Of a DNA stretch of 64,000 bases, positions 333 to 39,181 are shown in pieces. Location of the stretch: the NCBI GenBank assembly GCA_977862235.1, contig OZ374563.1, forward strand, positions 1,178,001 to 1,242,000. The letters run 5' to 3'. The position numbers were made by a program, and so were the translations under genes. This stretch comes from Dudresnaya verticillata (Eukaryota). Positions within the stretch are counted from its first letter, which is position 1; every line of letters starts with the position of its first letter. Below the pieces are notes generated by a model that was given only the letters and a program-made list of their open reading frames with translations, ran no database searches and was not told the DNA's origin.

Positions 333-3135
333 ATGGAGTCACGCGAACCGATCGCGGACGGCGCCCCCGCCGAGGGGGCGCCGGTTACCAAGCCCACCTC
401 CTCGACTGAGTCAGTCGTAGGGGGTGGGCCTGCCGAGCCGGTGCCAAGGGCGCCGGCTGGCGGAGAGGCGCGGGCTTCGAAGGCCGCGCCAACCGCAGAG
501 CGACCTTCGACGGTCGCTACAGAAGAGGCGCAACCTTCGACGGTTGCGCCAGAAGAAGCGCCCCCATCGAAGGGTGCGCCGGGAAAGGCCGGGGCTGCTG
601 CGCCGGCTTCGTCCGCCGGGGCGGGTGGCGTCGACGCCAACCCCACCCCAACGCCCGCCGCTGACGTCTGGTCAGAGGCGGTGGCCCTTGCTGCGGCGCA
701 GGGCAAGAGAGTGAAGGACCCGAGTGGGGCGGCCTCTGCCGCCCCGCGCCCAGTAGCGGCGGCTCGGGTCTTTCAGCCGACTGGCCCGCCTCGCGCAGGG
801 CCTACGGCTCACAGCAATCAACCCGCGTCGACGCGAGGAGGGGCATCCGCGGAGCAGCCTTCGCGCTCCGCGGTGCCGATGGTGGCGAGGGTGCTCGACC
901 TGAGTCGGTCGAGGTCACCCACGCCATCAGGGTCGGGGAAAGTCCCCGCAGCGGCGGCACCCTTTGTGCCGCGCGATTCTAGTGGCTTGGGGCCGTCGAC
1001 GGCCCCGACGCCGTCTTTCGTGGCCTCTGCCAACGCAGAGGGGGAGGCCGCGGGCGTGGGTGAGTCCACCGCTGCGCCCGTCGAGCCTCTTGTTGGGGTG
1101 TCGGTCTCAGTCGGACCGCCCCTCATGGGCCAGGCGCCCCCTGGACAGCACGCGCCCCCGACCGAGACGGTCTTCGCCTGGGGGGCGCCGCGCCACCAGA
1201 TCCCGCTGGATCAGTGGCGCGGGCTGCAGGAGCCTCGAGCAGACGTCCGGCGGCTCCTGAGGGTGGCCCACGCGAGCGTGGACGGAGGGGCGGCAGCGTA
1301 TGCCGCTTTCCTCCCGGCGGACGCCATAGTCTGTCTCACGCCGTTGGGGTTACCCTGCGACGTTTCTTACGTCGCTTCCCTTGAGGAGCTTCGGCGGGTG
1401 GACAGGGCAGCCGATGCCCTCTTCCTGACACCCGCCGATGAGTGGGCCCCGCCCCTGCCTGTCACCACCCCCGAGATGCGCACGGTGCCCGTCGACGAGC
1501 CCGTGGACCTCGCGCACCGTCTGGCCGATGCCGACTCTGCCCGCCGCCTCTTTGGGGTGTGCTTCGGGGAGCGGGATTGGGACGTGTGCAAGGCCCCGGG
1601 CGAAGGACGCCCGTCAAAGGGGTGCAAGTTGCACCCGGCGCTCGATGCGGCCTGGTTCCCATCAGCGGAGTGGTACTCCCACCGGGAGACTCCATCGGGA
1701 TTCACTATCCCGTGGATAACCGTAGACCGGTATTTCCACTACGCGACAGTCGGTCGCGTAGCTGCTCGTCGTGAGCTCCTGGCTAGGCGCTCAGATGAAT
1801 ACGCCTTCGAGGTGGGCCGCCGCTACTGCAGCGAGCTCCTCGCGAAGGGGACAGGCTGGGTCTTCGACGACCGCCTGATTAATTTCCTCGCGACCGGCTG
1901 GTCAAGCGAGAGGCCGTGTTTCCCAGACTTGCTCCGTCCTTCGGATGGCACGTCTTTTGGCTTCGGCGAGCTACTCGGCGTAGTCCGCCGAGTGGCTGCG
2001 GCAACCGAGAAGCACACGCGGAGGCGTCACTTCTCTTCACGCGTCAACGCGTTCGTGTGTGGCTTCTTGTCAGAGACAGGGGGCCTCTATAAGATCTAGC
2101 GCAATCGTGGCGCACGTGGCTGGCCGGCGGGAGCGCGTCGAGCGCTCCGGGTTCGCCTCGATGGCCGACATGGCCCGCACTGAGCGCGCCGGTCGTCGCC
2201 GTCGTGGCGTGGGTGCTAACCCTGGGTCAGCCGCGGCCGTCATGGCGGCGGAGACCGAGTCATACATCCCGCCGCCCGCAAGGGCGTCTGCGCGTCGTGC
2301 GCCAGCCGCCGCTGCGGCAGTCGGCGGACCGGCTGCTGCGGGGCCGTCGACGGCCCGCGCCCCTCCGGCCGCTGCCGTTGAGGTGTACCAGCCCCCGCCG
2401 GCCCCGTCTGGATCGCCGGCGGTGGCTTATGTCCCACCTCCTCCAGTGGTCGACCCACTGGACGAGGCGGTGAGTGCGGCAGTCTGGGCCGATCCGACTG
2501 TACGCAGCGCGGCCTCCTTGGCGCGCGTCGGGCAAGGCGTGTCGACACGCACGCTCCTGCAGGCCCTGGCATCGAGCGCAGTGGCGCTGCAGGAGGACGT
2601 CAACGCCTCCAATGCCGTCGCGGTTCGATACCGCGACGAGCGGGACGGCTTTGCCCGCGAGGTGCAGAGGCTCCGCGGGGAAGTCCAGCGCATGTCTTAT
2701 GCGCCGGCGCGCAAGAGGCTTCGCGAGGAGTACCAGCCGCCCCCGACGGGGTATGCGTCGATGCAGCCGATGCAGTCGTACGCTCCGGGCCCTTCTGGCC
2801 GGGCTGCCCCTTGGCAAGGCGCCAGGCAACTGATTTATCCAGGCGCTCAGGGCGGCGCAGGCGCGCCGCCCAGTGCTGCAGGCGTCGTGCCACAGCAAGT
2901 GGTTCTTCCGCAAGTGAGGGGCCCGTCGATGGGCCCTTACCACCCTGCAGCTCCCATAGGTGGGGGCGCAGTGGCGTACGGAGGCTCGGCGACTCCGCTT
3001 CCCGCCGGGGGTCTTCCACCAGCGCCACCGGCAACCACAACGGTGGTTGAAGGCTACGGGCCCGCGGCGCCGGGGGCAGCGGGCTCTGCGCCCGCCTTTC
3101 CCTGCATGGGTCCTGGGGGCGAGGCCGCCCAGTAG
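333..3135 (+). pseudogene. G1 antisense accessory gene (ORFs 333-2099 and 2059-3135, probably one disrupted ORF), unknown function
   Basis: TPLGLPCDVSY and SDEYAFEVGR...WVFD match G2 TPMGLPCDVSY and DSEYRFELGR...WVLD. C-terminal coiled coil followed by RKRLREEY. Confidence 0.8.
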
Positions 3136-4606
3136 TTATGCCGTAGTGGCTTATGCTGTAGAAGCATCCTAGTTCGAGGCGGTCGATCGCCTCGCTAGTT
3201 TTTAGACCGCCGATGCGTGTCTGGTTCATTAAAGAGCAAGGGGTGGGCGAAGACTTCGGTCCGCGTCGACGCGTTTTCAACAGCTGCGCCTTCGACCGCG
3301 CGGCTGCGTGCGAGCTATGCTCGCTGTAGCAGGTGGTGGGACTTCGACGCCCCACCTCCTCATGGGTGCTATTGTGCCTGACCCGCGTCGAAGCGGGTGG
3401 CGGTCCGCAGTGCTGGCGTCGACACAACACAGGGGCTGCCAGCGCGCGCAACGCCGCGTCGATGCGGAGCGTCAGCGCGGAGCGGGTGCCCCTAGTGGCG
3501 TCGCGGCTTTGCGCCGGAGGTGACCGCGTCGACGGGGTCCCCTCCGCCGGGAGTAGCCACGAGCGTGGCGGGGGCTTGTGCAGCCAACCCCAGGCCAGGG
3601 GCGTCGATGCCCCTGGATGATTGGGCAGAGGCCCGGGGGTGTCGGACCCCATTGGGCGTTCCCAGTTATTTGTGTTTTGGCTACAGTAGACACTGTAGCC
3701 TGAACACAAATCTGCGCCTCTGCGCTTGTGGGTGTGGCGCACGCGTCCCAAATATGGGTAAGCGCGCGCCTGTATTTGGCAGGGGCCGGTCGTCTGCCGC
3801 GGTGCCCTCGGCCTTCCCATCGTCGCGGTGGTTGTGCCGCTCACGCGTCGAAGCGCAGCGGTGCAACTCGAAGGACGCCGGCCTTCTTGGCTCTGGCGCC
3901 CCACATCGACGTGGGGGCTGTGCGCGTTGGCACCCCGCCCGGCTAGGCGCCAGGTCGGTGGGTGTTGGCCGAATATTACGCGCGGCCGCGGCGCGGCGTT
4001 GGTGAAGGGGGCGTCGACGCCTGCCCTCCGCCATCTGCGTGCAGCTGCCACTTGACGTCAAAGTCGGTGGCGCTTCGGCTTGGATGGCTCAGTGGTTTCT
4101 CCAGCCTGGTCGCGTCGAGCTTCGACGCTCGTTTCGCGTGCGCATATGACGAGGGCCCTCCGTCCGAGTCGACTCGGCGTGCGCGTTCCCTCGTTTTTGC
4201 CTGGGCTTCTGCCGCGTGGCGGTGGAGAAGGGGGCGTCGACGCCTGCCCTTCGCCACCTGTGCGCGGCTTCGCGGCGGCGTTGGTCAGACAACCCCCGAC
4301 GGTGCGGGTTGTCTTCCGCGTAGCGGGACTTCGCTACTGCCGGGCGTCGAGCCGGTAGTGGCGAGGGGCGTCGTGCCCAGCGTCCCTGCGATGCGCAGTT
4401 CGCAGAGCACCCCTGCTCCTTGGCCTCTGCCATTGGCGCGGGGTGCTTTCGGCTTGGGCCGCCGGCTTAGGCAGCCGCAATTCATGCCCTTACCGTGGGG
4501 CTTAGGCCCCACGTGTTCCCGTCGCTGGGAAAAAGCAAAGGGTGCCTGGATGAGGGTAATAACAGGCAAAGAATGCCTGAGGCAAAGAATGCCTGGGGCC
4601 CCCTCC

Positions 4607-7600
4607 TTAAGTACGAGGCGCCCCCGCCGAGGGGGCGAGTGGAGGGGATGGGGCGTCGAGCCCAGAGCCCTTCCGACGCTTCTGCGCGCGGAAGTATTGG
4701 CTCACCATCTCCTCCGGCAAATGGGATCGAGGTTCCCAAGTCGGCTTAGAGTAGCCGGTCCACTTGACCTGAAAGAGCATCGTGCCGTCTTCGGCCGTGC
4801 CATGGTCAAGTACCTTGTCCACCACGAACCGCGGGCCGTCGACGGCCTTGGACGCGAGATCTTTGGCGGTGGGCAAGTACGCGCTTCGACGCGCGGTGTC
4901 TTCCCGCAGAGGCGGGGGACAGAAGATGGCTCGGTCCGCTGCGATGCGTTCGACCAAGCCGTCTCTGTCGATAAACAACGTGCGCTCGTCGTTGAGCAGC
5001 ACGCGATAAGGCCCGATGGCCGGGCTCTGCAACTTCGGTGGTTTCGTCACCCCATCAGTTGCGTCGATGAAGACATAGTCTCCGGCCTTGATGCGGGAGT
5101 TGACCTTCCGGACCCGTCGGTCAAAGTCCTTTTTGTAACGCCTCTGCGTTTTGGCCAGGGCGGCAGAAGCCAGGCCCATAGCGGTGTCTAACCGCTTGAG
5201 GAAGTCCGTTCGGACATCCTCACTAGATTTCGGGCGGTCGACCGCCGAGTGAAACTTAGTAAATTCCGGCGGAGGCCGTGACAGCACTAAGCTGAATGGA
5301 GTCGTCCGTGTCGAGCGGTGCACGTGACAGTTGTAGGAATACGTCAACGCAGAGGCGTATCGATCCCAATCGTTTTGGTGATCGTTGACGTAGTTCCTCA
5401 ACATGGCCATGACGGTCCGGTTGTAGCGTTCAGCCTGCCCATTCGACTGGGGGTGATACGCGGAGGTGAACACGTTGTTCAAACCTAAATACCGGCAGAC
5501 GGCTTGGAAGAACTTCGATGTGAACTGCTTTCCGTTATCGGAAAGCAAGGACCTAGGCGGCCCGTAGTGGAAGACCCACTGTTCACAGAAGACAACTGCG
5601 ACGTTGTAAGCCGTAATGGTGCGCAGAGGCGCGACTTGCGTCAGCTTAGTAAAGCGGTCCGTCATGACGACGAGGAATTTGCGACCAGACTTGGTCTTGG
5701 GCAAGGGGCCCAGTATGTCGATAGCGACGGATTCCAGCGGCCTGGTGGCCGGGAACAGCTTCAGTCTATGAAGGTGTCTGCGCAGTCGAATGCGGTTACG
5801 GGCACAGTGCCTGCAGTTTCTTACTGTCATGGCGATTCTGGCCGCCATATGCGGCCAGTAGTAGGTCTCACGCAGGGAATAGAACATCTTGTTCTGCCCT
5901 GGGTGGCCCGCGAGGAGGGAGTGGTGCGCGAGCGTGAGCAGCCGAGGCTGTAACGACTCGGGCACCACTATCTGGTCTAGCGAAGCTATGACCGGATGAT
6001 GGCGGCATAGAAGCCCATCCCCGTCCTCGTAAAAATGGCTATCCCGTCGACGGGACTGCCTGGCCAGTACGGTCTGGCAGAAGGAGTCGTGCCGCTGCGC
6101 GTCCACAAATTCCTCGACGGAAATAGGTGAAGGGAGCTTCACTGGCGCCGCGGACGTCAAGTCCGATGGCTCGTCTCCCGCGTCGACGCGGAGGAGATCG
6201 AAGAGGTCGACGTCGTCGGTGTCGTCCCACGCCGCTTCGTCGGCCAAGTCCGGTGGTTCGTCTGCCGCGACCGTCTTGGGCGCGGTGCCGGTGATGCTTC
6301 CCCGGACTGGCTTCGGGATGGGCTGCGCTGGGGCCGAACCCGTAGATGCGTTGGCCCGCGAGCGTGTGGTTACCAAGACGGGAGCCGCGGGTTCTGTACC
6401 CGAACGTGCCACCGGCGTCTCAGCCGAGGACTCCCCTTGCTGGCAGTCGATCGCCGGGGGGTCAAAGGTAGGGACGTCGTCGTCAACCTCCTCCTGTTTC
6501 CGCTGGGGTCGAACCAAGCGGGACAAGGCATCCGGGACTTGGTGTACCCGCCCGGGGCGGTACTCGATCTGGAAGTCGAATTCCGCGAGCCGCAGGCGCC
6601 ACCGGGTCAGTCGACCCGAAGAGTCGGTCAGCGACATCAGCCATCGAAGCGCATCGTGATCGGTTCGAACCGTTAATCGCGTGCCTTCGATGTATAGCCG
6701 CAGGGTTGTGATCGACCACACCACTGCGAAGCACTCACGCTCAGTGGCGGAGTAATTGCGCTCCGCCGAGTTGAGCGAGTAGGACCAGTACCCGACTGGG
6801 TGTAGCTGGCCGTCCTCCTGCTCCTGCAGTAGGGCGCATCCGAGCTGATAAGCCGATGCGTCCGTATCGAGGACGTAGGTCTACCCGTTTTGGGGAGCCG
6901 TAGGATAGGGGGCGATATGAGCTTCGCTCTGAGCGTCTCATATGCCTCGAGCGCGTCGGCGCTTGGATTGTCGAAATCCACATCCGCGTCTTTGCGGGTC
7001 ATGTTCGTCAGAGGACGCGCGATCTTCGCGAAGTTGCGCGCGAAGCGGCGATAGACATTGCACGCGCCGACGAACGACCTCACCTTAGTCAGGGAGGTCG
7101 GGAACTGCGCATGGCGGAAAGCGTCGCTGCTCATCTGCGCCATGCGTAGCTTCCCCGGTTCGATGACGTGGCCGAGATAGCCAACGCGTGACTGAAAGAA
7201 GTGGCACTTCTTCAGTTTCAGGGATACTCCTCCCTTGTGCAACAGAGTCAGCACTTGGTCTAGATGACCAACGTGCTCCGCGATCGACCGCGAGAAAATG
7301 ATCACATCGTCTAGATAGATCAGGCAGCACTGCCATCGGACTCCGCTGAGGATGATGTCCAGTGCGCGCTGGAAAGTCGAGGGGGCGTTCTTCAGCCCGA
7401 AGGGCATTCGCAAGTAGCGAAACGTCCCTAAGAACGAAGTGAACGTGGTCTTATCACTGTCAGCCTCTGCGACAGGGATTTGCCAGTACCCCGCGTTGCA
7501 GTCCAACGTCGAGAAGACGGCTGCGTCGCCTAGACTGTCGATGCAGTCGTCCATCCTCAGTATAAGGTACGCATCACTTAGTGTTTTCGTGTTGAGACGT

Positions 7601-9236
7601 CGATAGTCCACGCAAAACCTAAGTGTGCCGTCCTTCTTGGGCGCCAGGACGACTGGCGATGCCCATTCCGAGGTGGCGGGTTCGATAACCCCAGCACGAA
7701 GCATGTTATCCACCTCGTCCTGCACCAGCTTGCGCATGGCAGGGCCCTGTCGGTAGGGCATGGAGCGGATGGGCGAGTGCCCCGTTCCACGTCGATGTGG
7801 TGTCGGGTGGCGGCAATAGTGCCCAGCCTCCCGTCCCACATGGACTGATGCTTCCTGAGCATGGAGAGGACCTCCGTGCGGGTCACCTCGTCTTCGATAG
7901 ACGAGAGATCGACCTGCGCCTCCCATTCCTCTACGGACGGGTTGGCCTTCGCTGCGGCGGTAGCTGCGCCCTGCAGCGGCTGGGCGTCGGTGCCCTTCGC
8001 CGTCGACGGCGAGGTGGATTGTTCCACGGCACCCTGATTGACCGGGGGCCTCTGCCCACGTGGTGGTAGGGTGGTGATGTTCATCACCCGCCCAAACTCC
8101 TCCGCGACTTTGCGGTCTGGAGTTATCAGTGCCACCGGGTCCCTAACCGCGTAGCCGACAACGGTACCCTTAGGTAGGGTCCGAGGCTTGTCGGTGAAGT
8201 TCCCGACGATGACCCCGAAAGGTCGCATCGACTCGACGTCGTGCACCCCGTTGGTAAGTCTCACGCCGTGGCGGAACTGCAACGAGGGTTTGGGTTCGGT
8301 GTGGATCAGCCCACTTGCTCCTGACGTCACGGAGACGAGCCTTTGGGAATAGGCTGGGAGCACCATCTGCCTAGAGAGGCGGATGGTGTGGGTGTCGTGA
8401 TCCCAGCCGAGGAGCTCCCTCTGGTGCCTCCTCGACAAACCCGTCGACGGGTTCTTCGGCTTCGATGCTGGCTTGCGGTCCTCGGCAGGTCTACTGCGCT
8501 TGAGGAGGGGCACCGAGCCCCCACGTCGGAGCGATAGGCGTTTCGACTCGACGTCGATGCCTCGCACGTGCGCATTGAGGAACTGCGTTCCCACCAGGAC
8601 GTCGACGGCCAAGGTGTCTGCCACTATGAATGGCACGCGGAACGTCGTGTTCCCCAACCTCATCGAGAGGTGCGCCACCCCTGATAGGCTCAGTGGGGTC
8701 TTATCAGCCCCGGCGAGGCGAGGAGTCGACTCCATCGCCGCCGCGTGCTGATCCCATCCGGGCGGCAGCGCCCGCTTCGCGATGAGGTTGTACCCGGAGC
8801 CGGTGTCCACCGCAATGGTGTGGGGTATCATTACCCCTGGGTCAGCGCCGAGCGACCCAGACACGCGGTATATCTCCTAGGACAAGAGGAACACATACCC
8901 GTAGGGGGTAGTGGCCGGCTCCGCGTCGACGCAGTGAGCCATGGCACCTTTGCGTCGAGCGGAGGGTGCCTCGTGATCCGTCGACGGACCCCTATGCGCT
9001 CGGCGTCGTGCCTGTCGCTTGCGTCGACGCCGCGGGGGCCAAGGTGGCCTGGAGCGCGTGGCTTTCGACGGCTCGTCGCAAAGCAGCCCCTCAGCGCTGC
9101 TTGGCGAGGGGGTCCTTCGTTGGTTGGGACTCGACGTCCTGCCTGCCGTCGACGGCTTGGCGGAGGATGGTGGGTCTGGGGTAGAGAGAGACGGTGCGCG
9201 CGACCGCACGAACGGCGCCGCCTTTACTCTTTTTCC
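4607..9236 (-). pseudogene. pol: G1 pol: protease, RT, RNase H, integrase, chromodomain
   Basis: [41 protein letters not shown]...CRHC, SDNGKQF, GQAERYN and chromodomain FQVKWTGY. In-frame stop at 8877 and frameshifts near 7780 and 6880. Confidence 0.95.
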
Positions 9237-11643
9237 GGTTCGATCCGGTCAAAATTATTTTCGGAATCCGAGCTTTCTTCCTCGGATCCCATTGGCTGGC
9301 TAGGGGCCGGGCCGGCGCCTCGCGTCGATCGCGGCGGCGTGTCAAAAAGGAGCGGGGGCTGCTCGACCTGCCCCCTGGCGGACTCGCCCTTGCTCTGCGC
9401 GTCGAGCGCTCGCGGGAGCCACTCGTCGGCTGCTAGCCCGGTGTGCTCCTGCACGGTCATCACTGCCCGAAGCAGTTCGCGCTGCGGCTCGGGTCTCGAG
9501 GGCGTCGACGCCCGAGGTTGGCGACCGGCTTGGTCATCAAACCCGACCCGCTTGTCGCGAGTGAGGAACCGCGGGACGTCTGCCCTTCGGTATTCGCGGC
9601 GCGGATCTCGACGATCCCCGCGGTACTTTCGCGGCTCCCCGCGATACCTTTGCGCGTCGAAGCGCTGCGGGGGACCCCTATCGTCGAAGCGTCGGGCCCC
9701 ACCCCGCTGCGCGTCGAAGCGTCTTGCGGGGTAACTTGCCTTGGCGCCTGCCGGCATGCGCTCGTCGATGAGCTGCTGCAAGTTGTTGCGCGCGTGCGGC
9801 TGCGTCTCCAGTCTATGGTTGCAGTTCGCATACGCGCAGTACAACTGCTGTTCCTTAGTCAGGAATGGGCACGAGTACATGATGTGCCCAAGTTCTCGGC
9901 AGAACCAGCAGATGTACCACCCCTGTCGATCAGGGGTGACAGCGCGGGCCATGGCCTCTTGCGCCGGTGTGAGCGGAGGGATCCTCCTCGGCAGGACGGC
10001 GTCGATGCGTCCTGAGATGTCGAGGGTCTCCTCGGCTTGCGCCGCCCCGGCTGTCGACAGCGCAGGCACGACCATGACGGGCTCGAAACCATCGTCATCG
10101 GGCGCCACCAACATCGTCCCGTCGAAGGCCGCTTCCCTATCAGGTTGTGTGGCGCCTCGATAAGCAGCGTGCGGCCGCTTGGCGAACTGCTTCCCCTACC
10201 GCGCCCCGAAACGATGGCCGGCGTCGACGCCTTGGCCATGCGGGCGCGGTAGGTTGTGCCCTCACTGTGGGCGATCCGACGAACGGTACTGAAGTTGGTC
10301 TGCTCGACCATTGGCATCTGCCTTACCTTCTCCGCTACTGCGGGTCGGGTGGTCGGAAGCAGACCACGCAGGAACTGGTGCGTCACGTTCTCGTCGGAGT
10401 AGACGCCGGCACAGTCATCTGCGTAGCCCTCTAGACGAGAGGCGAACTCGAGTTCTGACTCGGCGTCCCGCTGCCGGGCGGTCGTCAGTCGGTCGTGCGC
10501 GTCGGCGATCACGTCGTCGGTGACGAACCTCTCGACGAGGGTATTGACTACCGAGGCCCAGCACGGGGGGGTGCCGCGACTAGTCGCCCGGAACCCCGAG
10601 AAAAGGTGAGTCGAATACACCTGGGATGCCGTTCCGTCTAGGAACCAGGACACCACTCGCGCTGCTGCGCCTTCCGACAGGCCGACGCCGTTGAAGGCTT
10701 GGCGTAGCTGTCTAAGCAGGCCAAGCAAGCGGATGGACTCCTTGCCGTCGTAGCGATCTAGCCGCGGCATGAGAGCCTTCATCCGGCTGACAATCTTGGC
10801 GGTGTTGCCATTGCAGACTTGCTGCTGATTGTCCCGCTGGCTTATGTCGTCTAGACGATAGGAGCGGTAGTCGATTGCCTTCGCGAATTCGGGGACCAAG
10901 GTGCTCAGCGGCTCGACGCCCGGCATCAATGGCCCCCAGTGCCAGTAGGCCGACACGGGACCTTCGTGTGGTGAGGGGCTAGACGCCCCTCCAACTCCGC
11001 GCCCGTCGAGGGCGCGTTGTAGTAGCTTGGGGTCGACCCCGTAGAAGGGGTCGTCATCTCTTGTAGGGCGAGGGGACCCTTGCCCACTCCTAGGCGGAGA
11101 GGCCGGTGGAGAAAAAGGGTTTCGCTGAGCACGACGCTCAGCGAGGAGGGCTTTGGCCAGTTCGCGAACCGGATCCGCTTGAGACGGCGATCGCGGAGGA
11201 CGGCTCCGCACCGGCGACGGGCTAGGCGCCCGTCGGTCATACCGCACCGGTGCGTGCTCAATCAACTCAACGCGTTGGCGTAGCTCGTCGAGGAGCCCTT
11301 GAGTTCGGGTTAATCCTTCCTCGACGGAGGCGAGAGTTCCGCGTCGAAGCGACTCCAGGTCACGTTGACCTTGTGCCCGCGCGTCTGCGACTGAGGCCAT
11401 GCAGGTGTCGTACACTTCCGAAAGTGAGTCCATCGTCTCCTCGTAGAGTAGCTGGAGGTCGGTCGCAGAGACCGCTGTCCCTCGTAGGGCCTTGGCTATA
11501 GCCGCCCTGCGCTCGATGCGCGGTTCCTCTAGGGGAGCTCCTGAGACGCCGACGTTACTCAGCAAGGAAGTGCGTCGACCGCCAACTTCACCTGCCACGG
11601 CGTCTGCCGGACCGGCAGCGGCCGAAGTAGGTAGCGGCGGCAT
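9224..11643 (-). pseudogene. gag: G1 gag with CCHC zinc knuckle, frameshifted near 10150
   Basis: CWFCRELGHIMYSC (CX2CX4HX4C). Homologous to G2 gag (GPVSxxWHWGPL...YRSYRL). Confidence 0.88.
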
Positions 11644-11684
11644 TCTTGGCCTCGATCGCGTCGACGCGAGAGGTGATAGGGTCT

Positions 11685-12202: not shown

Positions 12203-13885
12203 AAACGGTCATCCAACAAGAGGATATGCGCAATGAGACCCTTACCCGTGAGGAGTTCATAGGCGCGCAAGCAACAGATACTTTCTGCAAGCTTAAAGCC
12301 GAATCGGTGGGATCCCCCGGATCACAATTTGACTACGACCGACATGGGTTTCTTGTGCGCAAGTCTGCCCTCGACGGCGCACTCCAAAAGGTGGTACCGC
12401 AACAGATGCGCGGCAGGGTCCTGTATCTTGCCCACTACACCTCGATTTCGGGACACCCTGGCGGAATTAAGATGTACTACACCTTACGGAGAGAATACTA
12501 CTGGCCACATATGGCTAACGATGTATTCGAGACCGTTCGGAGTTGCCGCTCATGTATCAAAACCAAGGGCACGCGGTTTAAGCATCAGAAGTTCATGAAG
12601 CTATTTCCCGAGAGTGGCGCACTGGAGTTTGTCGCTACGGACATACTGGGCCCGCTACCGAAAACCAAACGGGGATACGTCTTTGTACTGGTTATCACCG
12701 ATCGGTTTTCTAAACTAACACGCTGCATTCCGTTACGGAAGATTACAGTCGTCGTGGTGGCAAACGCATTTTTAGACCATTGGGTGCATGCGTATGGCGC
12801 ACCTAAATTTGTACTCACCGACAATGGAAGACAGTTCACAGCGAAGTTCTTCGACGCTTTCTGTGCCCCACTCGGAGTGCGACATTTGCTGACCGCCGCC
12901 TATCACCCGCAAACCAACGGGCAAGCCGAGCGGTTTAACAAAACCATCGCGCATCGCCTCCAGCACTACGTCGAGGATCACCACACCGATTGGGATTTAT
13001 ATCTACAGCCGTTAACCTATTCCTACAATATGCAGATACACCGAATCACGGATACTACCCCTTTCGACTTGGTGTTAACTCGACACCCATCGGATATTAT
13101 TGTGCGTGGCACCCCTGTGGAGTTGGAAGAAACCGTTACGGAGGGGCGTATGACGCCCGTACTCCAAAAGCGGGGAACCATGCGGCGTTTGCGTTTTGAA
13201 GTCCAAGGCCCTATTCGACCGTAAGGTGCGTTTCCGACCGGTGGTTCGCGGTGGCGATCAGGTCTACGTAGACCGCCGGCCTCGTAATCTACGGCCCACC
13301 GAACGGAAAGAACGCGACCGATTGGGTCAAGGCCCTGACCACGTCGGTGAATTTGCGGAGCAAATGAAGAAGCTCCTCCCAAGATCGACGGGCCCCTATG
13401 AGGTGCACACCGCAACGGATACTGTAGTCACTATCAAGAAGGATGGCGTCCTGATTCCCATCAGCATCGATCGCATCACTAAGGTACCAATTGGAGTTCC
13501 CGTGCAACCGGCGCCACTATTGGCTCCGCCGGTTCCGCCACACACCGACGTGGACGGTGCAGTATTCCAGCAGGCGGGAGGCACCACAGTAGTACCCCAA
13601 ACACCAGGTGGTATTACTGTAACGCCCCAAACGCCAGGCGGTATTTCTGTCCCCGTGCCGGAAACAATTGATGCCAACACGGAGTATGTCATCGAGCAGA
13701 TCGTGGGACACCGCGAAGAACCCACGGGCATGACCTACAAGGTGCGTTGGTACGGCTACCCACCAGACCAGGACACGTATGAACCCGCTGAGGAGTTGCC
13801 GCAAAACTTCATACACCGCTATTGGAATAGAAAGCGCACAGCAGCCGCTGCAGCTCGACGTCGCAGAGCTTCCACGCGCCGATAG
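12203..13885 (+). pseudogene. pol: G3 integrase-chromodomain, cut by the G1 insertion and frameshifted near 13200
   Basis: HYTSISGHPG...CRSC, DILGPLP, TDNGRQF, GQAERFN and YVIEQIVGH...YKVRWYGY...DTYEP. Confidence 0.93.
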
Positions 13886-13920
13886 CCAGTCGCTACTCAC
13901 CAACGCAGTAGGGGTTTGGC

Positions 13921-16993: not shown

Positions 16994-17149
16994 TGCTAGC
17001 GGTACACCGATCTGGACCCGTCCGTTGGTTGACCTGCCTGAAGTGGAGTGTACTGATGCGGCTCTCTCCGTTGTTGGGTACACCTGAGTGGAGTGGTAGA
17101 AGACGTGCTGAGGCGCACGAGGACGTGTCGCCATTTAAGGAGGGGGGTC

Positions 17150-17824
17150 TGTGGTGAAGCGGCCGTTGTGGAGTGCCGACCACGGTTGAGCCGACTTGCG
17201 ACCGGCGCCCCGGTGAACTGGCGCCAAAATCCGAACGGGAGTGCAGCGACACAGTAGCACTGTACGCCTTGCTGGAGTCTGCGCGCACCACCAATAGGAG
17301 CCAAGTAGTTGATTTATTTGTAATTAGGTAATTGTAATGATGCTGTACAGTACGTAGTGTCAGCCGGCCAATGAGAATGCCGAACATGTCCGCAACGGTG
17401 ACCGGGACCAGTAGGGCCGGACCCACCTGGTGGCCCAGACCCATTGGGGTCTGGCCCACACGGACCGGACCGCGGGGCGTATCTCCCAGTATATTAATGG
17501 GTGGCCACCGCGAGTCCTACAGTAAACGGGTACGCAACCCTGGGCAAAGTGACTTACCCTAAGCCTTACCCTCATACTGCTTTACGGTTTCCCCTCGCCA
17601 GCCCCGTGCACGGATTCCTCCTACCTCCGTCCCGGTGTAGCTGCCCTGGCACTGTACTGTCCCCCTTGTCTGTTGCGTCCCTTTGCTCCTTACAGGTGTT
17701 GCCGCTCGAGGTGCTCCCTTCGGTCTACGAACTAAGGTCTACCACCCCGGTGCCGTGTGAGATCACTCCTTATTGGGATTGCCTGATCAGCTCTCCTTAC
17801 AGGTGTGCCTTTCACTTCACCACA
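17150..17824 (+). repeat. G3 3' LTR (675 bp)
   Basis: TGTGGTGAAG...CTTCACCACA perfect terminal inverted repeat directly after the PPT. TATA-like TATATTAA near 17490. Confidence 0.88.
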
Positions 17825-26700: not shown

Positions 26701-28356
26701 CTTATCGCGGTCTTCCGGGGCAACCGGAATCTGCCAGTACCCGCTGTTACAATCGAGTGTCGAGAAAATCGAAGCGTCTCCGAGTGAATCGATACAATCT
26801 TCCATCCGGGGAAGTGGGTACGCGTCGGATAGCGTCTTCGTATTGAGTCTTCGGTAATCTACGCAAAAACGAAGTGTTCCGTCTTTCTTCTGTGCGAGGA
26901 CTACGGGGGACGCCCACTCCGAGGTGGCTGGTTCGATTACTCCGGCTTCGAGCATACTGTCGATTTCGTTACGCACGATTTCACGTATTGCGGGCCCTTG
27001 ACGATAGGGCATCGAACGAATAGGTCGAGTACCGGGTTGTAGATCGATCCGATGCTCCGTGGCTGCGATCGTTCCGAGGTCTCCGTTCCACATCGATTCG
27101 TGCTTACGTAGCATCTCGAGGACCTCGTTTCGCATAGTTTCATCGGGTATGTTCGAAAGGTCTACGCGTTCTTCCCAATCGCGGGAACTCGAATTGGCTT
27201 CTGCTGCTGCAGTCACGGCACCCTTCGTGAGCTGCTTTTCCTTCGTGGATACGGATTCTTCGGGTGGCTTCGAGTCGTCGTGCTCACGTAGCGTAGAGAT
27301 GATGAGCACCTTGGCAAACGAATCCGCGACTTCGAGATCGGGTGTCAGAATCGCGAGCGGGTTTCGGGCTGCGTATCCGATGACGGTTCCCTTCGGTAGA
27401 GCTCGAGGCTTATCCGTGAAGTTCGCCATCAACACCGAAAACTCGCGATTCGGACTGACTTCGTGTATCCCGTTCGTTAACCGTACTCCGTGTCGGTGTT
27501 GTAATGAAGGCTTCGGTTCGATATGAATTAGTCCGAGTGCTTCCGAGGTCACGGTGACTAGCTTCTGCGAATAACTCGGTATGGTGACGCGGCGGTTCAA
27601 ACGAATGGTACGGGTATCTCGGTCCCAATCGTGGAGCTCACGTTGGTGTCGCTTCGATAGCGTTTTCTCGAATTTCTGCTTCGGATTTTTCGAATTAGTA
27701 GCGGGTGGAGCCGATCCAGCAATGCGGTTGATAATCGGAATCGTGCTTCCACTCTTCGTGATGAGCCTCCGTGGGCTGAGCTCGATACTTCGTAAATGCG
27801 CGTCCATCCACGAAGTTCCAAGGAGAACATCGACCGCGAGTTTCTCCGCAACCACGAAGGGTACGCGGTATCGAACGTTCCCAAGGCGGACTGTCAGGTA
27901 AACGATGCCATCGAGTCGCAACGGGGTGCGATCAGCGGACGCGAGCCTCGGAGCTGATTCAATCGTGGACGCGTTCGCTTCCCAACCGGTGGGTAACGCA
28001 GCCCGGGCTATTAGGTTGTAACCGGAACACGTATCGACTGCAATCGTATGCGGCGTCATTACGGAGGCATCGAGGCCAATGGATCCGGTCACGAGGAAGA
28101 TCTCCGAAGTCATTAAGCAAACGTATCCCTCGGTGGTAACTTCGGGTTCGGTCTTCGAGATCGGTTTCGTCTTCGAATTGTTTTCGCACGAAGCGTCTTT
28201 CGCGAGGACTCGACATCGCTTTCGGTCTCGTCGTCGTGCAGCGCGCTTCCTTCGCATCGTAGCGGCTCTCGGAATCGGAATACGCGGTGTGTCTCGGGGA
28301 ACGGATTCAGACGAAGTACGTGACACAACGGGCGTCTTCGCCTTTACTCGTTTTCC
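23741..28356 (-). pseudogene. pol: G2 pol: protease, RT, RNase H, integrase, chromodomain
   Basis: VDTCSG (variant catalytic motif), [24 protein letters not shown]...CKHC, SDNGKQF and FHIKWDGY. Frameshifts near 25894 and 24766. Confidence 0.95.
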
Positions 28357-30794
28357 GAACTCGAACTAGAATCCGAATTGCGAGCGTCCGCGTCCAATGG
28401 GGAGGTTGATCGATCACCTCTTCCGTTGTTCGCGGAGTCTTCGTAAGCCTCCGAGGGCAGGTTCGGGTGACTCGGCTCAATCGCGTCAACGTTTTCACGG
28501 ACTGCGAGAACCGGTTGACGGCCCGGGGCCTGCGCGTGTCTCGGATTGCGGAGGACGGTCGGCGGTCCTCGACGCTCGAAGCTGACTTGACGCTGGGCTC
28601 GGTCCCTCGGGTGCCGCGTATCGCCTTGACGAAGATTTCGGTTCACGCGATTGTCACGTGATCCTCGGGAGTCTTGTCCACGGTGACCTTGATTGTCAAC
28701 GGACGCGAACGAATTCCCTCTTGATGCGCCGCGATTCACGAAGTTATTACGCGTATACGGTCTCGTCTCGAGTTGGTACAAGTAGTTCTGGTACGCGCAA
28801 TAGAGTTGTTGCTCCTTCTTGAGATACGGACACGAATACATGAGGTGACCAATTTCGCGACAGAACCAACACGGCCACGCATCTTGATTCTTCGGTATCA
28901 TCGAACTCGCCATCTCGATTTGCTCCGGGGTCATCGGGGGGACACGCGCGGGTACGAAACGCTCGATGCGACTCGTGAGATCTAACGTATCGTCCACGGA
29001 GACCGTTGTCGAAGTAGTCGGTGTAGCGGATGTGGACCCGGTTCCTGAACGAATCATCATCACGGCCATTTGCGGGTCTTCGTTCATCGGGTACTCGTAT
29101 TCACTCCCGGGAGTGTCGCAAGCTTCGATAAGCATCGTGCGTCCGGGCGCTTGGCGACTCTTCGGGTACGTAGGAGACACTTGGTTCTTCGAATCACGCG
29201 ACTGTTGGGCCGCGGTGTCACGTAGTTCGCGAGCTCGGAATGTCGTGCCTTCGGCTTGCGCGATTCGTTACACGCTCATAAAATGCTTCTGCTCGGACAG
29301 CGGTAAACGGCGAACCTGGTCGGCCACGATAGGATACGTAGTAGGTAGTAATCCACGAATAATCTGGTGCGTTAACGAAGAGTCATCGTAGACACCGGAG
29401 CAGACATCCGCGTAGCCTTGCAAACAAGTCGCGAACTCCATCTCGGTTTCATCGGACTTCTGCTTCGCGGTTATCACGCGATCGTGTGCGTCTGCGACTA
29501 CGTCTTCCGTGAGAAATCGCTGTAGTAACACGTTCACGATCGCGGACCAGCAAACCGGGTTGCCCGTACGAACGCCTCCGAAGGCATAGTGTTGATACAC
29601 CTTGAGCGCGGTCTCATCGAGAAACCACGAAATCGTACGAACTACTGCTCCTTCGGTGAGCCCGACTCCGTTCAGCGCTTGTCGAATATCACGAAGAAAT
29701 GCGAGAACCTTAATCGGGTCGCGTCCCGTAAACTTCTCGAGTCTCAGCATCATCGAACGCATGCGTGAAACGGTTTTCGACGTGTTACCTCGGAATACTT
29801 CGTGTTGAATATCCCGAGGTGACGAATTCCTGAGTCGATACGATCGATAGCTTACGGCCCGCGCGAATTCTGGAATGAGCGTCGGTATCGGTTCGACGCC
29901 CGGCCCGAGCGGTCCCCAGTGCCAGAACGATGACACGGGTCCCGCGAGCGCTAACAGATTTTCGATTACGGGTCCTCCGGGGGACATCGGTGGTTGAAGC
30001 GAATCTCGGAATACTGCGGGGTTGATACGGGGGTTGTCGGAGGCATCGGTTGCCTGATGCGATAAAGGGTGCGGGGACGGATTCGGATACGTGTTTTTCG
30101 GTAACGTAGATTGGGTACCCGGGCCTTGCACGGGTTGAACTAGCGGCGAATTGCGGGGGTCAGGACGGGCTTCGGAATGATCTTCACGACTTCGAGACTT
30201 CGGTAACGCTGCGGACATGATGTCACGAATAGCGTTCAACTGTTCCTCGGAGAACGCGTGCGAGCTGCGAACGGGAAGCGAGTGACTCGCCTTGCCCACG
30301 GGGGTGGATACGTTGCGCTCGAGCACGAGAAACCGATTGCTGACTCCCGAGACGAGATCCCGGAGACTCTCGAGTGAGTCTTCGATCCTACGGACCTTGC
30401 CAGCGCGGAGATTGTTGAACTCTTCGTGAACTCGATTGTGCGTATTACGAATTGAAAGCTGCGTGATACGGTACGCGGTAGAAAGCGCATCGATGACCTC
30501 TTCGTAGAGTAAACGTAGTTCTGAACCGGAGACTTCCTTCATCGAGAAGAGTCGATCGACGGTATCCGAGGGAACGATTTCCAACGGAGTGTACGTATAC
30601 GAAAGGTCGGACTGGCTACCGTGAGCCTGCGAACGCGAGTCTGTGCGAAGATCGGGTACCGTTATTCGTGAAGCGCGAGTGCGAGAAAACGGTTCTCGGT
30701 CACTCGCGTTCGAGTCGAACAACGGGAGCTCCGGAATCGGTACGTCATCGGGTTTCGGTACCGGCGAATCGGGACGACTCTGAGCGTGAGACAT
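28344..30794 (-). pseudogene. gag: G2 gag with CCHC knuckle and a premature stop at 29268
   Basis: CWFCREIGHLMYSC. The two ORF halves are in the same frame. Confidence 0.9.
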
Positions 30795-30846
30795 CGTATC
30801 TCGAATAGAAACGAATTACGAATAAATGCGAAACTTCGGGACCACG

Positions 30847-30864: not shown

Positions 30865-30865
30865 G

Positions 30866-31712
30866 TGTGGTATAACGAAGTCCACGGAGACGCGGGGAAG
30901 TCTCGCACTGTAAGGAATGGCCTCGGAGCCTAACGAATGGCCTCGTAGCCTAACGGAGAAACGAAAAGGGGTGGTATCGTGGTAGAGCGGAGCGACCAAC
31001 ACGAAGGACCACGGTGTCAACGTATTCGTGTGCGGAAGGGAGAACTCGAGCGATCGATCACCGGGGATGACTCCGGGTGCGCGGGGCTATCGAAAGCGAG
31101 ACTCGACCGTATCCGCGGTCACGAAGACGAAGACACCGAACTCGAAGAAACATGCGTTTACCGAAGACTCCGAGGTCCGGGCGCTAGTCGCTTATCGGGA
31201 ACCCTCGGAGGTTGTGCCAGACGACTGGCTACTAAGTAGTACTACGTGAGCACGAGTGCGCGTCAACGCGGGAGACGGTTCGTACTCGAATGATTCGTAA
31301 CGGCCTCGGTTCCAACGAACGGTCGTCTCACGTATGGTGGCGGTTACGAAGTGCGCCAGGGATGCATACGGAGGTGCGCACGCTTCGTGGGCCTCGATGC
31401 CGTTACGCGCGGGAAACAACGGGAAAGTCACAAAGGTGTCAGCGATTTCGTATCGGGTGCGCACTGTAATGCGAATGCCATCGTGGCGCGCGCGATCACG
31501 AAGTCAGCTTGGAATCCGTCCGGAGCTGTCAGCGATTTCGCATCACGTGCGTGCTGTAAAGCGAATGCCATCGTGGCACGCGCAGAGTATGCGCACTGTA
31601 ATACGTTTGCCATCGTGGCGTGCGCATTCACGGAGTCACTTCGAAATTCGTATTTCTCGACTATTTTTCACGTAGACCACGGAGTCGTTTTGCGCATAGC
31701 GTCTATACCACA
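30866..31712 (-). repeat. G2 5' LTR
   Basis: Direct repeat of 18835-19680, followed by TSD copy GTGTT at 31713-31717. Confidence 0.95.
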
Positions 31713-33911: not shown

Positions 33912-33931
33912 CCGGCCGATCTGCTGGCCGG

Positions 33932-36019: not shown

Positions 36020-39000
36020 TGTGATACAGCTCTTTGAGCCGGATCTGATCTGTTCTCGCTGCCGCCGTCGCATCTCGATAAGAGATCACCCGCCGGGGGA
36101 ACAAGATGTTCTCCTCACCCTCCGTTCTCCTCTCTCTTTCCCCACCCTCCCGCCCTTTTCGAAACTTGGAAACATGCCTCTCTGTATCTTTGTTTTTATT
36201 TAGATGGGATATGGGGTAAGGGGGGAAGTCAGAACTTTTACACTTGGCAAAAGGCACGGGGCACCGCCGGCTAATCAGGTGAAGAAGCGGACGGGTAAGG
36301 TATTTATATCGAACCCCGCCGAAGTTGGACAGGTCCAGAGTTCAGAGTTCGAGCCTTCCCGGTGATACGCCGACAATAATCGTTTTGTAGAAATACTTTA
36401 CGAAGTTCGCTGTCACTTCAGATAGAAGGGGACCGGCAGTAGAGTATTGCCCACGCGTAAATGGATTACTGTTTCAACAGTCTGGAGGCGGAAACCCATA
36501 CGACTTTCCACCGCACTGCCATTTCGATCTCCTCCATGCCTCGAACTCAAGACGCCTCCTCTTCCTCTTTCTTACCTTCAGACATCCTCCGTAGAAGGCA
36601 GAAGATGCCGCCGAGACGACACTCTGGTTGACATCGTAAGGAAGTTGCCGACGGCATGTAGTAGAATGGTTTTCAAGCCAGAGTAGACGGCCACACAGCA
36701 CGACAGCTATCCTGAAAGCGTGATCCCACTCGCGTGGTTGGTAGCTCAAAAAGGGGTGGTAGAGACTTGAGAGGGCTGCAAGCCCTGCAAAAGAGGGATA
36801 AAAGGGAAGGCGAACCGTACTGCTTAGAGCAGTCGTCGTAGGTAGCACGGCTTGTAAACGCCTAACGGGGGTTGTAGCGATGATACCGTGAGAGTCCAAC
36901 AAAATGGAAAACCCCAAGGCACACACCTCTGCCCGATTAGTGCGGGGCCCCTGCTACTCAGGGGCCTAATAAATATGGTGGGAGCCGGAAAGATACTACC
37001 CGCTCAGTTAGAGCTAACATGCTAACAGTGAGCTAATACTGTACACTAACAGTTTCACTAGCGATTAAAAATAGAAATGAGCGGTCATACCGCTTCCGTA
37101 CGTACGGTGTAAGACGCCGCGCACAAAATAGGCGTGAAATCATGGTGCGTATCCACCAATCAGCGAGCATAGTGCTCACGTAGTTAATTGTCCAATGGCA
37201 AGCAGCCATCTCACTCCTGTGTCCCACGCCTTACAGGCGTCGTGTGTACACGTGGCTCCTAACAGCGCCCCAGCGCTCGTTATACCACACGGCCCCCTTC
37301 TTAAAACTGAGCGCCCGCGCTCAGTAGAGAGCTGTACAGCGATGCTGTTTCCAAAGCCTGTGGCCGTTGAGATTCGAAATCTCGGTCCGTTCGTCGGCCC
37401 AATAGCCACGGATGTGAAAACGACTCCTTTCAACCGTCTCAACGGTGAGGCCAAGTCAGCGCGACTTGAGCCGTCGGCGTTGGCACGACCGGTATCGATT
37501 GCGGGAAACGCCAGACGGGCGTGCGCCTATTTCAACGCCGGCTCCTAGCCGTCTCCGCTCTCACTGTGCCCAGCACACTCACACCCCCTGCTCCACCGAC
37601 GCCATCTCTTTCCCAAGCGCTCGGCCGCTTCCGGCGTTGACGTCCTCCACAGCTCACAGCCGTTGTCGGGTACGCAGTCGGTGTCGACAGCTTTCCCAGG
37701 TTGCACGCGTGTCAGCGTTCGCCGGCTCCCGGCCGCTTTGTCAGGTCGCGCTCGTCAGCCTTAAGGCTTGGCTTTGGAGCCGACGGTCAGATTCAAGAAC
37801 GGCTTCCGCGCCGGAGAAGGTTGCTCAGGTCGCGTTCATTGGTAAAACTGGTTTTGGAGCCGACAGTCAGGCAGAAGAACGGCTTCCGCGCCGTAGGCGT
37901 CATCAGGTCGTGCTCACTACCCAGCAGGGTCAGTTGTGGAGCCGACGCCAACCAAGGAAAAGGTCTTCGAACCTTAGGATATTTGATCCCCGGACGGCTT
38001 GGAAGTCGTTGGGGTATTCGCTCGCCATAGCGAAATGGCTCCGCCACACTTGGCGTATGGGGCGGCAGGCTCGAGTGCCAATGTCTTGGGACATGAGGTG
38101 GATGCGGCTGGCGTGCCGATAGCGATCTTCCACAGCCGCAACTGGCTCTTGCGTACCGATCTAACACATGTAAAGATGTGGGCAGGAGCTAGTCGCAAGG
38201 AGGTTCGCGGCATCGGGGGGAGGATGGCTCAAAGCCGTGTTTGGAATTGCCTCATGCGCACGCGCGTCAGCATCTTGAACGGTACCAACCGGTTCCTCCC
38301 GCGCCTTGATGGCGATGCCGAGACATTGCAATGGGATCTTGCCTATGTAAGGTTTAGGCACGAGGTTGCGTGGAGCAATAACTTGACTCAGAACTTAACT
38401 TCGCAGGCCGCTCTGTTCATGAGATTCACCAGAGCGGCGAGTCGGACCTTCGACTGGTCATGCATGAGCGTCCACTCATTCGGCAGGGGAGGGATAACTT
38501 CCCGTATAGAATGGCCCGCGTGGTGCGGTGGGATGAGTCATCCAACTTAAAATATGCCCTGAATAACCCCCAGACGGCTATGCCGTTGGAGCATTCCCGC
38601 TTCGAGCGAAAGCAACGCCAAAGACAGGGTGTCTCATCCCTTGCCACTGTCAAGAGGTGACGGCTATTAAGCCGGAGTGGTATAACGGGAAGTACCCCCA
38701 GATTCCAGACGATCATAAGAATCTCGAGGTCTCAAACTCAATGCCCGTTGGAGCTCCGACTATCGTCGCTTACCTCGGTCTAGAAATGATGGCTAAGGCC
38801 ATGGATGACAGTGTACTGTGGAGTATCTTCCGCCATGAGTGTATTGACCTCGTCGTACAGACCTTGGTCTATGAGGCTCGTCGAGGCCTTTTGTATTTCA
38901 TCGGCCAACCATTGCGCGTGGCCATTCGGGCTCTGAGCCCGACGGCTCTTACGGCGGACGCTGAAGACGCCAAGGACATAGAAGTCCTACTCGTATTCAT

Positions 39001-39181
39001 AGAGCGTATCCGCTGGAGCGAAATTTCCAAGATGAATCGACATCTTCCGGATAATACCGGTCATCTGACTCCAGTCTTCAATCGTGGAGACTGGGTGGAT
39101 TTTGATCCTCAGAAGTGGCATCCACTCTTAACACAGGTTTCCCGCGTTTCAGAATGTACTTTCAAAAACAGAGTGAACTAA
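36020..39181 (-). mobile_element. Truncated fourth Gypsy-like element G4: probable 3' LTR (~36020-37289), PPT and antisense gene; no gag or pol present
   Basis: TATACCACA-CGGCCCCCTTC at 37281-37300 has the same LTR/PPT junction as G2. The left LTR end (TGTGATAC at 36020) is tentative. Confidence 0.62.
37700..39181 (+). pseudogene. G4 antisense gene remnant with an N-terminal ~80-bp tandem repeat (37740-37945)
   Basis: PEWY...PVGAPTIVAYL...FRHECIDLV aligns by eye with G1 AEWY...IPWITVDRYF...SDEYAFEV and G3 PTVVAYF...QAEWAMLV. Confidence 0.55.

What the first reader, a model, noticed from the sequence alone, without database searches (positions are those of the whole stretch)
333..39181. Four divergent Gypsy families all carry a homologous antisense gene of unknown function
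Seen: G1 (333-3135), G3 (14268-16993), G2 (20341-22356) and G4 (~37700-39181) each have an opposite-strand gene next to the PPT, despite unrelated LTR interiors. G1 and G2 share TP[LM]GLPCDVSY. All four share a W-x-P-x-[TR]V-x-x-Y[FL] block (ITVDRYF, PRVIRYF, PTVVAYF, PTIVAYL) followed by E[YWC]. G2 and G3 share a CRxAG helix. G1-G3 end with a coiled coil and KR motif (RKRLREEY, KRRREDY, AKRPR). Known: antisense extra ORFs with coiled coils and NLS occur in plant Tat/Retand elements (Grande, RIRE2) but are not a standard feature of chromodomain Gypsy elements. Inference: an old, selected, nuclear accessory protein, possibly an anti-silencing or targeting factor.
Basis: partly seen in the sequence, partly recalled or inferred. 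Interest (0 to 1): 0.88.

Follow-up and report, generated by a model that had tools for sequence, protein, structure and literature searches.

The report
Antisense new-fold gene in Gypsy retrotransposons
Two related jumping genes here carry, backwards near their right end, broken copies of an old conserved gene whose protein core is predicted to fold unlike any solved structure; two more elements likely carry distant versions, and the protein likely works in the nucleus to help the element stay expressed.

Summary
The antisense gene is real. G1 and G2 are chromodomain Gypsy elements, and each encodes, opposite to pol and just inside the PPT, a ~335-aa domain: 28% identical, E 2e-25. A profile finds 18 unnamed relatives among 1.84 billion proteins. 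Five look whole: disordered N-terminus, core, coiled coil, disordered tail. The core folds confidently (pLDDT 86) and matches nothing in Pfam, PDB or BFVD. 'All four' is weaker than stated. G3 is a probable distant member and G4 a possible one: they rank 3 and 4 of 1524 window ORFs, but neither is significant alone (E 0.26-0.64). G4 has no gag or pol beside it and no coiled coil. G1 and G2 are sister families (RT 76% identical). All four copies are broken. The layout is known from plant Grande, RIRE2 and Retand and from fungal Boty; this protein family appears undescribed. Best reading: an oligomeric, probably nuclear accessory factor that supports the element's expression. Function, expression, host organism and the genomic context of the 18 relatives are untested.

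The parts
1..12 (-). G1 polypurine tract; the 3' LTR lies left of the window
   Evidence: the first ~60 bp inside it resemble the same place in G2 (score 54 against 25-33 for the other 5 pairs)
333..2099 (+). G1 antisense gene, part 1: disordered N-terminus plus conserved core (core 1101-2093); the frame breaks right after the core
   Evidence: (E 1.8e-47 to a profile built without window rows)
1984..3135 (+). G1 antisense gene, part 2 (other frame, stop to stop): linker, helical/coiled-coil stretch, RKRLREEY, Gly/Pro-rich tail
   Evidence: weak heptad score (1.15)
4607..11684 (-). G1 gag-pol in several broken frames, integrase with chromodomain; 5' end cut by a DIRS-like fragment
   Evidence: Pfam rve, Chromo, RVT_1, Retrotrans_gag
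12204..13885 (+). G3 integrase and chromodomain (5' part of the element missing)
   Evidence: Pfam Integrase_H2C2, rve, Chromo E 2.7e-12
14268..17134 (-). G3 antisense gene, probable distant member. First ATG abuts the PPT; frame change near 16210-16283; in-frame stop at 15786-15788; core about 16240-15430; CRxAG helix, coiled coil and AKRPR at the end
17134..17824 (+). G3 PPT (17134-17149) and 3' LTR (17150-17824, TGTGGT...ACCACA)
18835..19697 (-). G2 3' LTR (18835-19680) and PPT
20341..22356 (+). G2 antisense gene, one frame with one in-frame stop at 21877-21879; core 20647-21666; then CRxAG helix, coiled coil, KRRREDY, tail with [DN]PY motifs
   Evidence: (E 1.3e-63)
23741..30815 (-). G2 gag-pol in several broken frames, integrase with chromodomain; RT closest to Ty3 among solved structures
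   Evidence: (7q5b Ty3 Gag-Pol, E 1e-78)
30866..31712 (-). G2 5' LTR; 795 of 845 aligned bases match the 3' LTR (K2P 0.062); no target-site duplication seen
37281..37303 (-). G4 LTR terminus (ends 37289) and PPT; the other LTR end was not located
37987..38550 (+). G4 upstream ORF; motifs like the N-half of the core by eye only
   Evidence: not significant (restricted E 0.31-0.49)
38567..39181 (+). G4 downstream ORF, possible distant member (C-half of the core); no coiled coil follows; no gag or pol nearby

Best explanation
G1 and G2 are chromodomain Gypsy elements that carry broken copies of a conserved third gene on the opposite strand between pol and the PPT, G3 likely and G4 possibly carry distant versions, and its product is likely an oligomeric nuclear accessory protein that helps the element stay expressed. 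Shown: position, strand, G1-G2 homology, a family of 18 further proteins, conservation of the antisense frame only, and broken frames. Predicted: a compact ~335-aa core with no solved structural match, a coiled coil, disordered ends, no membrane helix. Inferred: (1) it is transcribed from its own promoter in or next to the 3' LTR, as Grande gene23 is from its own upstream region; (2) it enters the nucleus through variable basic motifs; (3) it self-associates through the coiled coil; (4) the non-basic core binds a host chromatin or silencing protein and so shields the element's transcription in trans. Odds: real selected accessory gene about 0.9; G3 homologous about 0.85; G4 about 0.7; this mechanism rather than a rival about 0.4.
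For: G1-G2 E 2e-25 over 326 aa. 18 relatives at E<=0.001, 7 of them at <=1e-10; 5 of the 18 are 585-835 aa single ORFs with the whole layout. A profile from 17 non-window rows recovers G2 (1e-63) and G1 (2e-47) and ranks the G3 and G4 ORFs third and fourth of 1524. Among antisense-side candidates only, G3 scores E 0.011-0.013 of 41 and G4 0.007-0.018 of 43; sense-side controls score 0.18-0.69. G3 aligns collinearly over 179 columns and tops 571 background chunks. G3-G4 core p 0.0016 and G2-G3 C-terminal helix p 0.0014 by shuffling. Third codon positions are saturated. AlphaFold pLDDT 86.1, pTM 0.86. Coiled-coil families hit P0002, P0003 and P0005 below cut-off. Highest 19-residue hydropathy 1.71. 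Precedent: nuclear Grande gene23 with its own promoter and an SMC-like PvRetro13 ORF2 (PMC7264820); coiled-coil oligomers predicted for Athila and VANC accessory proteins (PMC13547354).
Against: No expression, localisation or binding data. The DNA around the 18 relatives was not seen, so their place in Gypsy elements is assumed. G3's lead over background in hhalign is thin (21.4 against 20.2) and G4 is background there (15.6). G4 block-chain p values were 0.11, 0.29, 0.065 and 0.011 in four runs, the best with blocks chosen after seeing the hit. In the frameshift-tolerant alignment both G3 and G4 were seen above the reversed null in 1 of 3 settings; in a second G3 barely was and G4 was not; in the third neither was displayed. 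No basic run was found in 2 of 5 intact relatives. No sequence link to PMD, VANC/DUF1985 or TRP28. All four copies are broken, and G4 lacks the coiled coil.
Confidence: 0.55

Rival explanations
1. Same gene, but it works on RNA: a Rev/CERV-like adaptor that exports or packages the unspliced genomic RNA.
For: Oligomeric layout with Arg-rich stretches. CERV of C. elegans Cer1 is a nuclear LTR-element protein needed for genomic RNA export (PMC10309623 abstract). The review raises Rev-like roles (PMC7264820).
Against: CERV comes from a spliced Cer1 mRNA; that it is on the sense strand is recalled. No RNA-binding family was hit. The core is near neutral or acidic.
Confidence: 0.2
2. The core is an enzyme of a new fold acting on nucleic acid or on a host defence protein.
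For: Near-invariant charged and aromatic residues (R51, D53, R56, D91, E100, D105, R152, D162, W30, P85, P134) in a confidently folded domain. Orchid Gypsy elements with an m6A demethylase domain are a precedent (search listing only).
Against: No conserved Cys/His set. No catalytic fold among 48,161 chains (best Z 3.1, rmsd 3.5, 71 aligned). Whether the conserved residues cluster in a pocket could not be inspected.
Confidence: 0.15
3. It imports the pre-integration complex or steers integration, together with the chromodomain integrase.
For: Basic motifs in G1-G3; the review names nuclear import as a candidate role.
Against: The integrases already carry a chromodomain. The accessory core diverges much faster than integrase between G1 and G2 (30% against 65%), which fits host-facing work better than a fixed partnership.
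Confidence: 0.1
4. Only G1 and G2 share the gene; the G3 and G4 ORFs are unrelated antisense genes and the shared block is chance.
For: Pairwise scores to G1/G2 are not significant. Whole-window E 0.26-0.64. The short motif occurs 4 more times elsewhere in the window.
Against: Both rank directly behind G1/G2 among 1524 ORFs, at the same profile position. G3 scores 36.9 against 14.2 for the next of 520 windows (blocks chosen after seeing G3) and p 0.002 with blocks set by conservation alone. G3 and G4 resemble each other.
Confidence: 0.15
5. A captured host gene or passenger with no role in the element's cycle.
For: Context of the 18 relatives is unknown; gene capture by LTR elements is known (PMC7264820).
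Against: Same strand and place in elements whose third codon positions are saturated. None of the 18 clusters carries a name or accession. Many hits are short fragments, as expected of decaying copies.
Confidence: 0.07

Closest known systems
Antisense additional ORFs between pol and the 3' LTR (aORF-3R) of plant Ty3/Gypsy: maize Grande gene23, rice RIRE2, Silene Retand, bean PvRetro13; TRP28 (PF04195) proteins
   Same: Place, strand, a separate gene of unknown function, a folded domain with coiled-coil (SMC-like) parts; nuclear location shown for Grande (PMC7264820, parts 1-2 of 3 read; PMC11963269 passages).
   Different: Retand is a non-chromovirus lineage of flowering plants (listing); these elements carry a chromodomain. 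No PF04195 hit in 19 of 19 family rows at E<=10.
brtn, the antisense gene of Boty-like Gypsy elements of Botrytis cinerea and Sclerotinia
   Same: An antisense extra gene in a non-plant Gypsy element (Zhao et al. 2011 seen only as a citation).
   Different: No sequence comparison was possible. Unchecked notes of this scan describe related fungal genes as small six-cysteine coiled-coil proteins; this family is 585-835 aa with no conserved cysteine cluster.
Plant mobile domain (PMD-A on retrotransposons) and VANC/DUF1985 anti-silencing proteins
   Same: Transposon-borne accessory proteins acting on chromatin; VANC is predicted to oligomerise by a coiled coil (passages).
   Different: No Pfam hit to either. 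PMD-C is described with a predicted DNA-binding surface, whereas this core is mostly non-basic. No predicted-structure library of cellular proteins was available for a fold comparison.
CERV of C. elegans Cer1
   Same: A novel nuclear accessory protein of an LTR retrotransposon (abstract).
   Different: Made from a spliced Cer1 mRNA; no similarity was tested.
env-like sense ORF3 (Athila, Bagy2, errantiviruses)
   Same: Lies between pol and the 3' LTR.
   Different: Opposite strand here, and no membrane helix.

Membership tests
Chromodomain Ty3/Gypsy element | gag-PR-RT-RH-IN order with a C-terminal chromodomain | tested here: met
   G1 and G2 in full, G3 integrase and chromodomain only
Chromodomain Ty3/Gypsy element | G4 carries gag-pol | tested here: not met
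   No tblastn match of 10 gag/pol queries beside G4, best E 0.25; a PPT and an LTR end are present
aORF-3R (antisense ORF between pol and 3' LTR) | ORF antisense to gag-pol, between pol and the PPT | tested here: met
   G1, G2, G3; G4 meets it relative to the PPT only
aORF-3R (antisense ORF between pol and 3' LTR) | Conserved at protein level across families | tested here: met
   G1-G2; probable for G3, weak for G4
aORF-3R (antisense ORF between pol and 3' LTR) | Present in most copies of a family | not testable with these tools
   No genome held; one copy per family in the window
aORF-3R (antisense ORF between pol and 3' LTR) | Antisense transcript from its own promoter; nuclear product | not testable with these tools
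   No expression or localisation data could be obtained
TRP28 / Transposase_28 (PF04195) | Pfam domain hit | tested here: not met
   0 of 19 rows at E<=10; HMMER's filters drop weak matches, so remote kinship is not excluded
PMD / VANC-DUF1985 anti-silencing proteins | Pfam domain hit | tested here: not met
   0 of 19 rows
PMD / VANC-DUF1985 anti-silencing proteins | Shared fold | tested here: inconclusive
   It is not known whether such a structure is in the libraries searched
env-like ORF3 | Sense strand and transmembrane helix | tested here: not met
   Antisense; highest 19-residue hydropathy 1.71
brtn (Boty) | Sequence similarity to brtn | not tested
   No brtn sequence was in hand

The most novel reading that the evidence does not exclude
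A whole chromovirus lineage has kept, since before its integrases drifted to 50% identity, a third gene for a protein fold not yet seen in any solved structure. It is a retrotransposon-borne suppressor of host silencing, invented independently of VANC, PMD and TRP28, and G4-like elements keep it even without gag-pol beside it.
Probability: 0.2. Interest if true: 0.8.

Novelty: new variant of a known kind. Interest (0 to 1): 0.52.

Why it matters
What antisense extra genes of LTR retrotransposons do is an open question (PMC7264820). This family adds an apparently undescribed, well-folded, deeply conserved domain outside the Tat/Retand lineage. Intact natural members (P0001, P0002, P0003, P0005, P0008) are ready for structure, localisation and interaction work. 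If it counters silencing, it is a separate solution to the transposon-host conflict. The layout itself is not new, and the copies here are broken.

Tried and rejected
No whole genome held, so no copy count and no dN/dS. Sequencing runs: none was listed. ESM Atlas gave no result. Word-based protein searches: none for the G2 core, 1 already-known hit for A3, none for the G3/G4 alignment at E<=1. DNA context: none confirmed in metagenome contigs (77 and 66 pattern stretches) or viral contigs; an RT query gave 4 distant loci at 30-34%, not followed. Families: no match for the core in Pfam, NCBIfam or PHROGs (two single-member hits, best E 0.00066, not examined). Folds: Foldseek PDB 0 at E<=0.001, BFVD 0, VIA best Z 3.1 for the whole core and for the N-half, PDB sequences best E 0.26. 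These blanks do not prove a new fold, and the first ~110 residues were barely aligned in either VIA run. Self-association: no verdict. G4's two ORFs read as one chain gave no better profile match (E 0.26). Sense-strand or env reading rejected. Introns as the cause of the breaks were considered by eye only and not shown; plain decay is simpler because gag-pol is broken too. A tree of 16 of 19 core rows (3 short rows dropped) is mostly unresolved, 3 of 13 branches firm. Earlier findings by place, sequence and first word set: nothing. Nine paper searches listed no description of this family; subscription journals, Repbase, GyDB and REXdb entries were not searchable.
Full report
Setting. The window is a nest of mobile elements. 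No whole genome is held and no call named the host; my impression of a red alga is recalled, not tested. G1 (gag-pol on the minus strand, 4607-11684) and G2 (23741-30815) have gag, protease, RT, RNase H and an integrase with a chromodomain; G3 keeps only integrase and chromodomain on the plus strand. G2's RT is closest to Ty3 among solved structures. G2 has both LTRs, identical at 795 of 845 aligned bases, with no target-site duplication. G2, G3 and G4 each show a PPT followed by an LTR starting TGTGGT; G1's PPT is at bases 1-12 and its LTR is outside the window. G4 has no gag or pol nearby.

The observation. All four genes are broken: G1 changes frame right after the core, G2 has one in-frame stop, G3 a frame change and a stop, G4 two ORFs in different frames. 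G1 and G2 align over 326 residues at 28% identity, E 2e-25; 0 of 500 shuffles reach the score. Among all frames of the four 3' regions, only the G1/G2 antisense pair matches. Codon-position identity is 0.44/0.51/0.30, like gag at 0.56/0.67/0.35, which points to purifying selection on this frame; the alignment is protein-guided, so this is not a dN/dS. G1 and G2 are sister families (RT 76%); G3's integrase is 44-55% identical to theirs.

The family. A profile of the two cores found 18 proteins at E<=0.001 among 1.84 billion, 7 at <=1e-10. All 18 clusters come from ENA or Logan assemblies and none has a name or accession. Five are long single ORFs of 585-835 aa: disordered N-terminus, ~335-aa core, linker, helical and coiled-coil region, disordered tail. 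Four of these five have DPY motifs in the C-terminal part. The alignment of G1, G2 and 17 of the 18 hits (P0011 left out) shows near-invariant W30, R51, D53, R56, P85, D105, P134, R152 and D162. I could not get DNA around any relative, so their place in Gypsy elements is assumed.

Are G3 and G4 members? A profile from the 17 non-window rows gives G2 1e-63 and G1 2e-47; the G3 and G4 ORFs come third and fourth of 1524 ORFs, at the same profile position, with E 0.39 and 0.64, or 0.47 and 0.26 when fragments are handled. Restricted to antisense-side ORFs, G3 scores E 0.011-0.013 of 41 and G4 0.007-0.018 of 43; sense-side controls score 0.18-0.69. G3, read through its stop, aligns collinearly over 179 columns (P 0.029) and is the best of 571 background chunks by a thin margin (21.4 against 20.2). 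Chained conserved blocks give G3 36.9 against 14.2 (blocks chosen after seeing G3) and p 0.002, 0.01, 0.0007, 0.001 in four runs; G4 gives 0.11, 0.29, 0.065, 0.011. A frameshift-tolerant alignment showed both above a reversed null in 1 of 3 settings, G3 alone and barely in another, and displayed neither in the third. By shuffling, G3-G4 p 0.0016, G2-G3 C-terminal helix p 0.0014, G3-P0002 0.004, G4-P0001 0.003 (best of 10 relatives each, uncorrected), while G3 and G4 against G1 or G2 cores are not significant. G4 is background in hhalign. No closer relatives of G3 or G4 were found. Verdict: G3 about 0.85, G4 about 0.7.

Structure. AlphaFold2 on the G2 core gave pLDDT 86.1 and pTM 0.86 from 19 sequences, a mainly helical domain with short strands and a terminal hairpin. 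Foldseek found nothing at E<=0.001 in PDB or BFVD; VIA's best was Z 3.1 among 48,161 chains. The N-half alone (pLDDT 78.3) also found nothing. Pfam, NCBIfam and PHROGs gave no match for the core. A blank does not prove a new fold, and AlphaFold DB was not available. The core is near neutral or acidic in 6 of 8 rows and no chain has a clear membrane helix. Basic runs occur in G1-G3 and in 3 of 5 intact relatives, at varying places.

How it likely works. Shown: a selected protein-coding gene on the antisense strand. Inferred: it needs its own promoter, in or beside the 3' LTR, since its first ATG lies about 320 bases (G1), 660 bases (G2) or directly (G3) inside the PPT. The product is soluble, likely oligomeric and likely nuclear. 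Its core diverges faster than any other protein of the element (30% against 45-76%) and is not basic, which fits binding to host proteins. I put a chromatin or anti-silencing adaptor first (about 0.4), then an RNA export adaptor (0.2), an enzyme (0.15), an import or targeting factor (0.1) and a passenger (0.07).

What is known. Antisense ORFs between pol and the 3' LTR are described for Grande, RIRE2, Retand, PvRetro13 and fungal Boty; their function is unknown, and Grande's product is nuclear with its own promoter (PMC7264820, parts 1-2 of 3 read). 97% of Retand clusters encode TRP28 there (PMC11963269, passages). brtn is cited in PMC8365987 (passages). PMD/VANC kinship and predicted accessory-protein oligomers are from passages of bioRxiv 10.1101/2024.09.27.615353 and PMC13547354; CERV from the abstract of PMC10309623. 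Passages of PMC6431247 and PMC2864245 added nothing on this gene. No supplements were opened. Unchecked notes of this scan report many such genes in fungal Gypsy elements (27 findings, 8 shown). Nine searches listed no description of this family.

Verdict. It is filed as an aORF-3R by layout, and not as TRP28, PMD/VANC or env by sequence. The kind is known; the domain appears new and folds well. The four-family claim is probable for three elements and possible for the fourth. Interest 0.52.

Noticed in passing
window 31713-35800 (+): A decayed DIRS-like element: weak RT (E 0.017-0.036) and a Phage_int_SAM_1 hit (E 0.04) before a recombinase-like ORF. G2's 5' LTR abuts it.
   Followed up: partly
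window 11685-12203 and 33946-34465: A 520-bp piece of the DIRS-like element, 95% identical and inverted, sits exactly where G1's 5' end and G3's 5' part are lost; it may mark a rearrangement.
   Followed up: partly
window 42136-44510 (+): An ORF with a VVDGMHR stretch (ParB-like by recall; no Pfam hit) is followed by a split N6_N4_Mtase DNA methylase (E 1.8e-05 and 0.00035), inside a long gene-like region (42-64 kb) with no other informative family hit; possibly a giant DNA transposon.
   Followed up: partly
window 49563-50774 (-): A lone gag 77% identical in protein to G1's gag, without pol.
   Followed up: partly
window 18033-18835: Two partial G2-family LTR pieces, one inverted, directly abut G2's 3' LTR.
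   Followed up: no
window 22718-22737 (-): A second PPT-like tract, close in sequence to G2's real PPT, lies just downstream of the antisense gene; possibly a central PPT.
   Followed up: no
window 18835-19680, 30866-31712, 17150-17824: These LTRs end in inverted repeats longer than the usual TG...CA (TGTGGTATA...TATACCACA in G2).
   Followed up: no
window 22250-22350; P0001, P0002, P0005, P0008: Repeated [DN]PY motifs, mostly in the disordered C-terminal parts, 1-4 per protein in 4 of 5 intact relatives and 2 in G2; a candidate short binding motif.
   Followed up: no
window 3988-4269, 13920-14084, 37769-37916: Short two-copy repeats (59-78 bp) in the 3' internal regions of G1, G3 and G4, like the tandem repeats reported for Retand 3' regions.
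   Followed up: no
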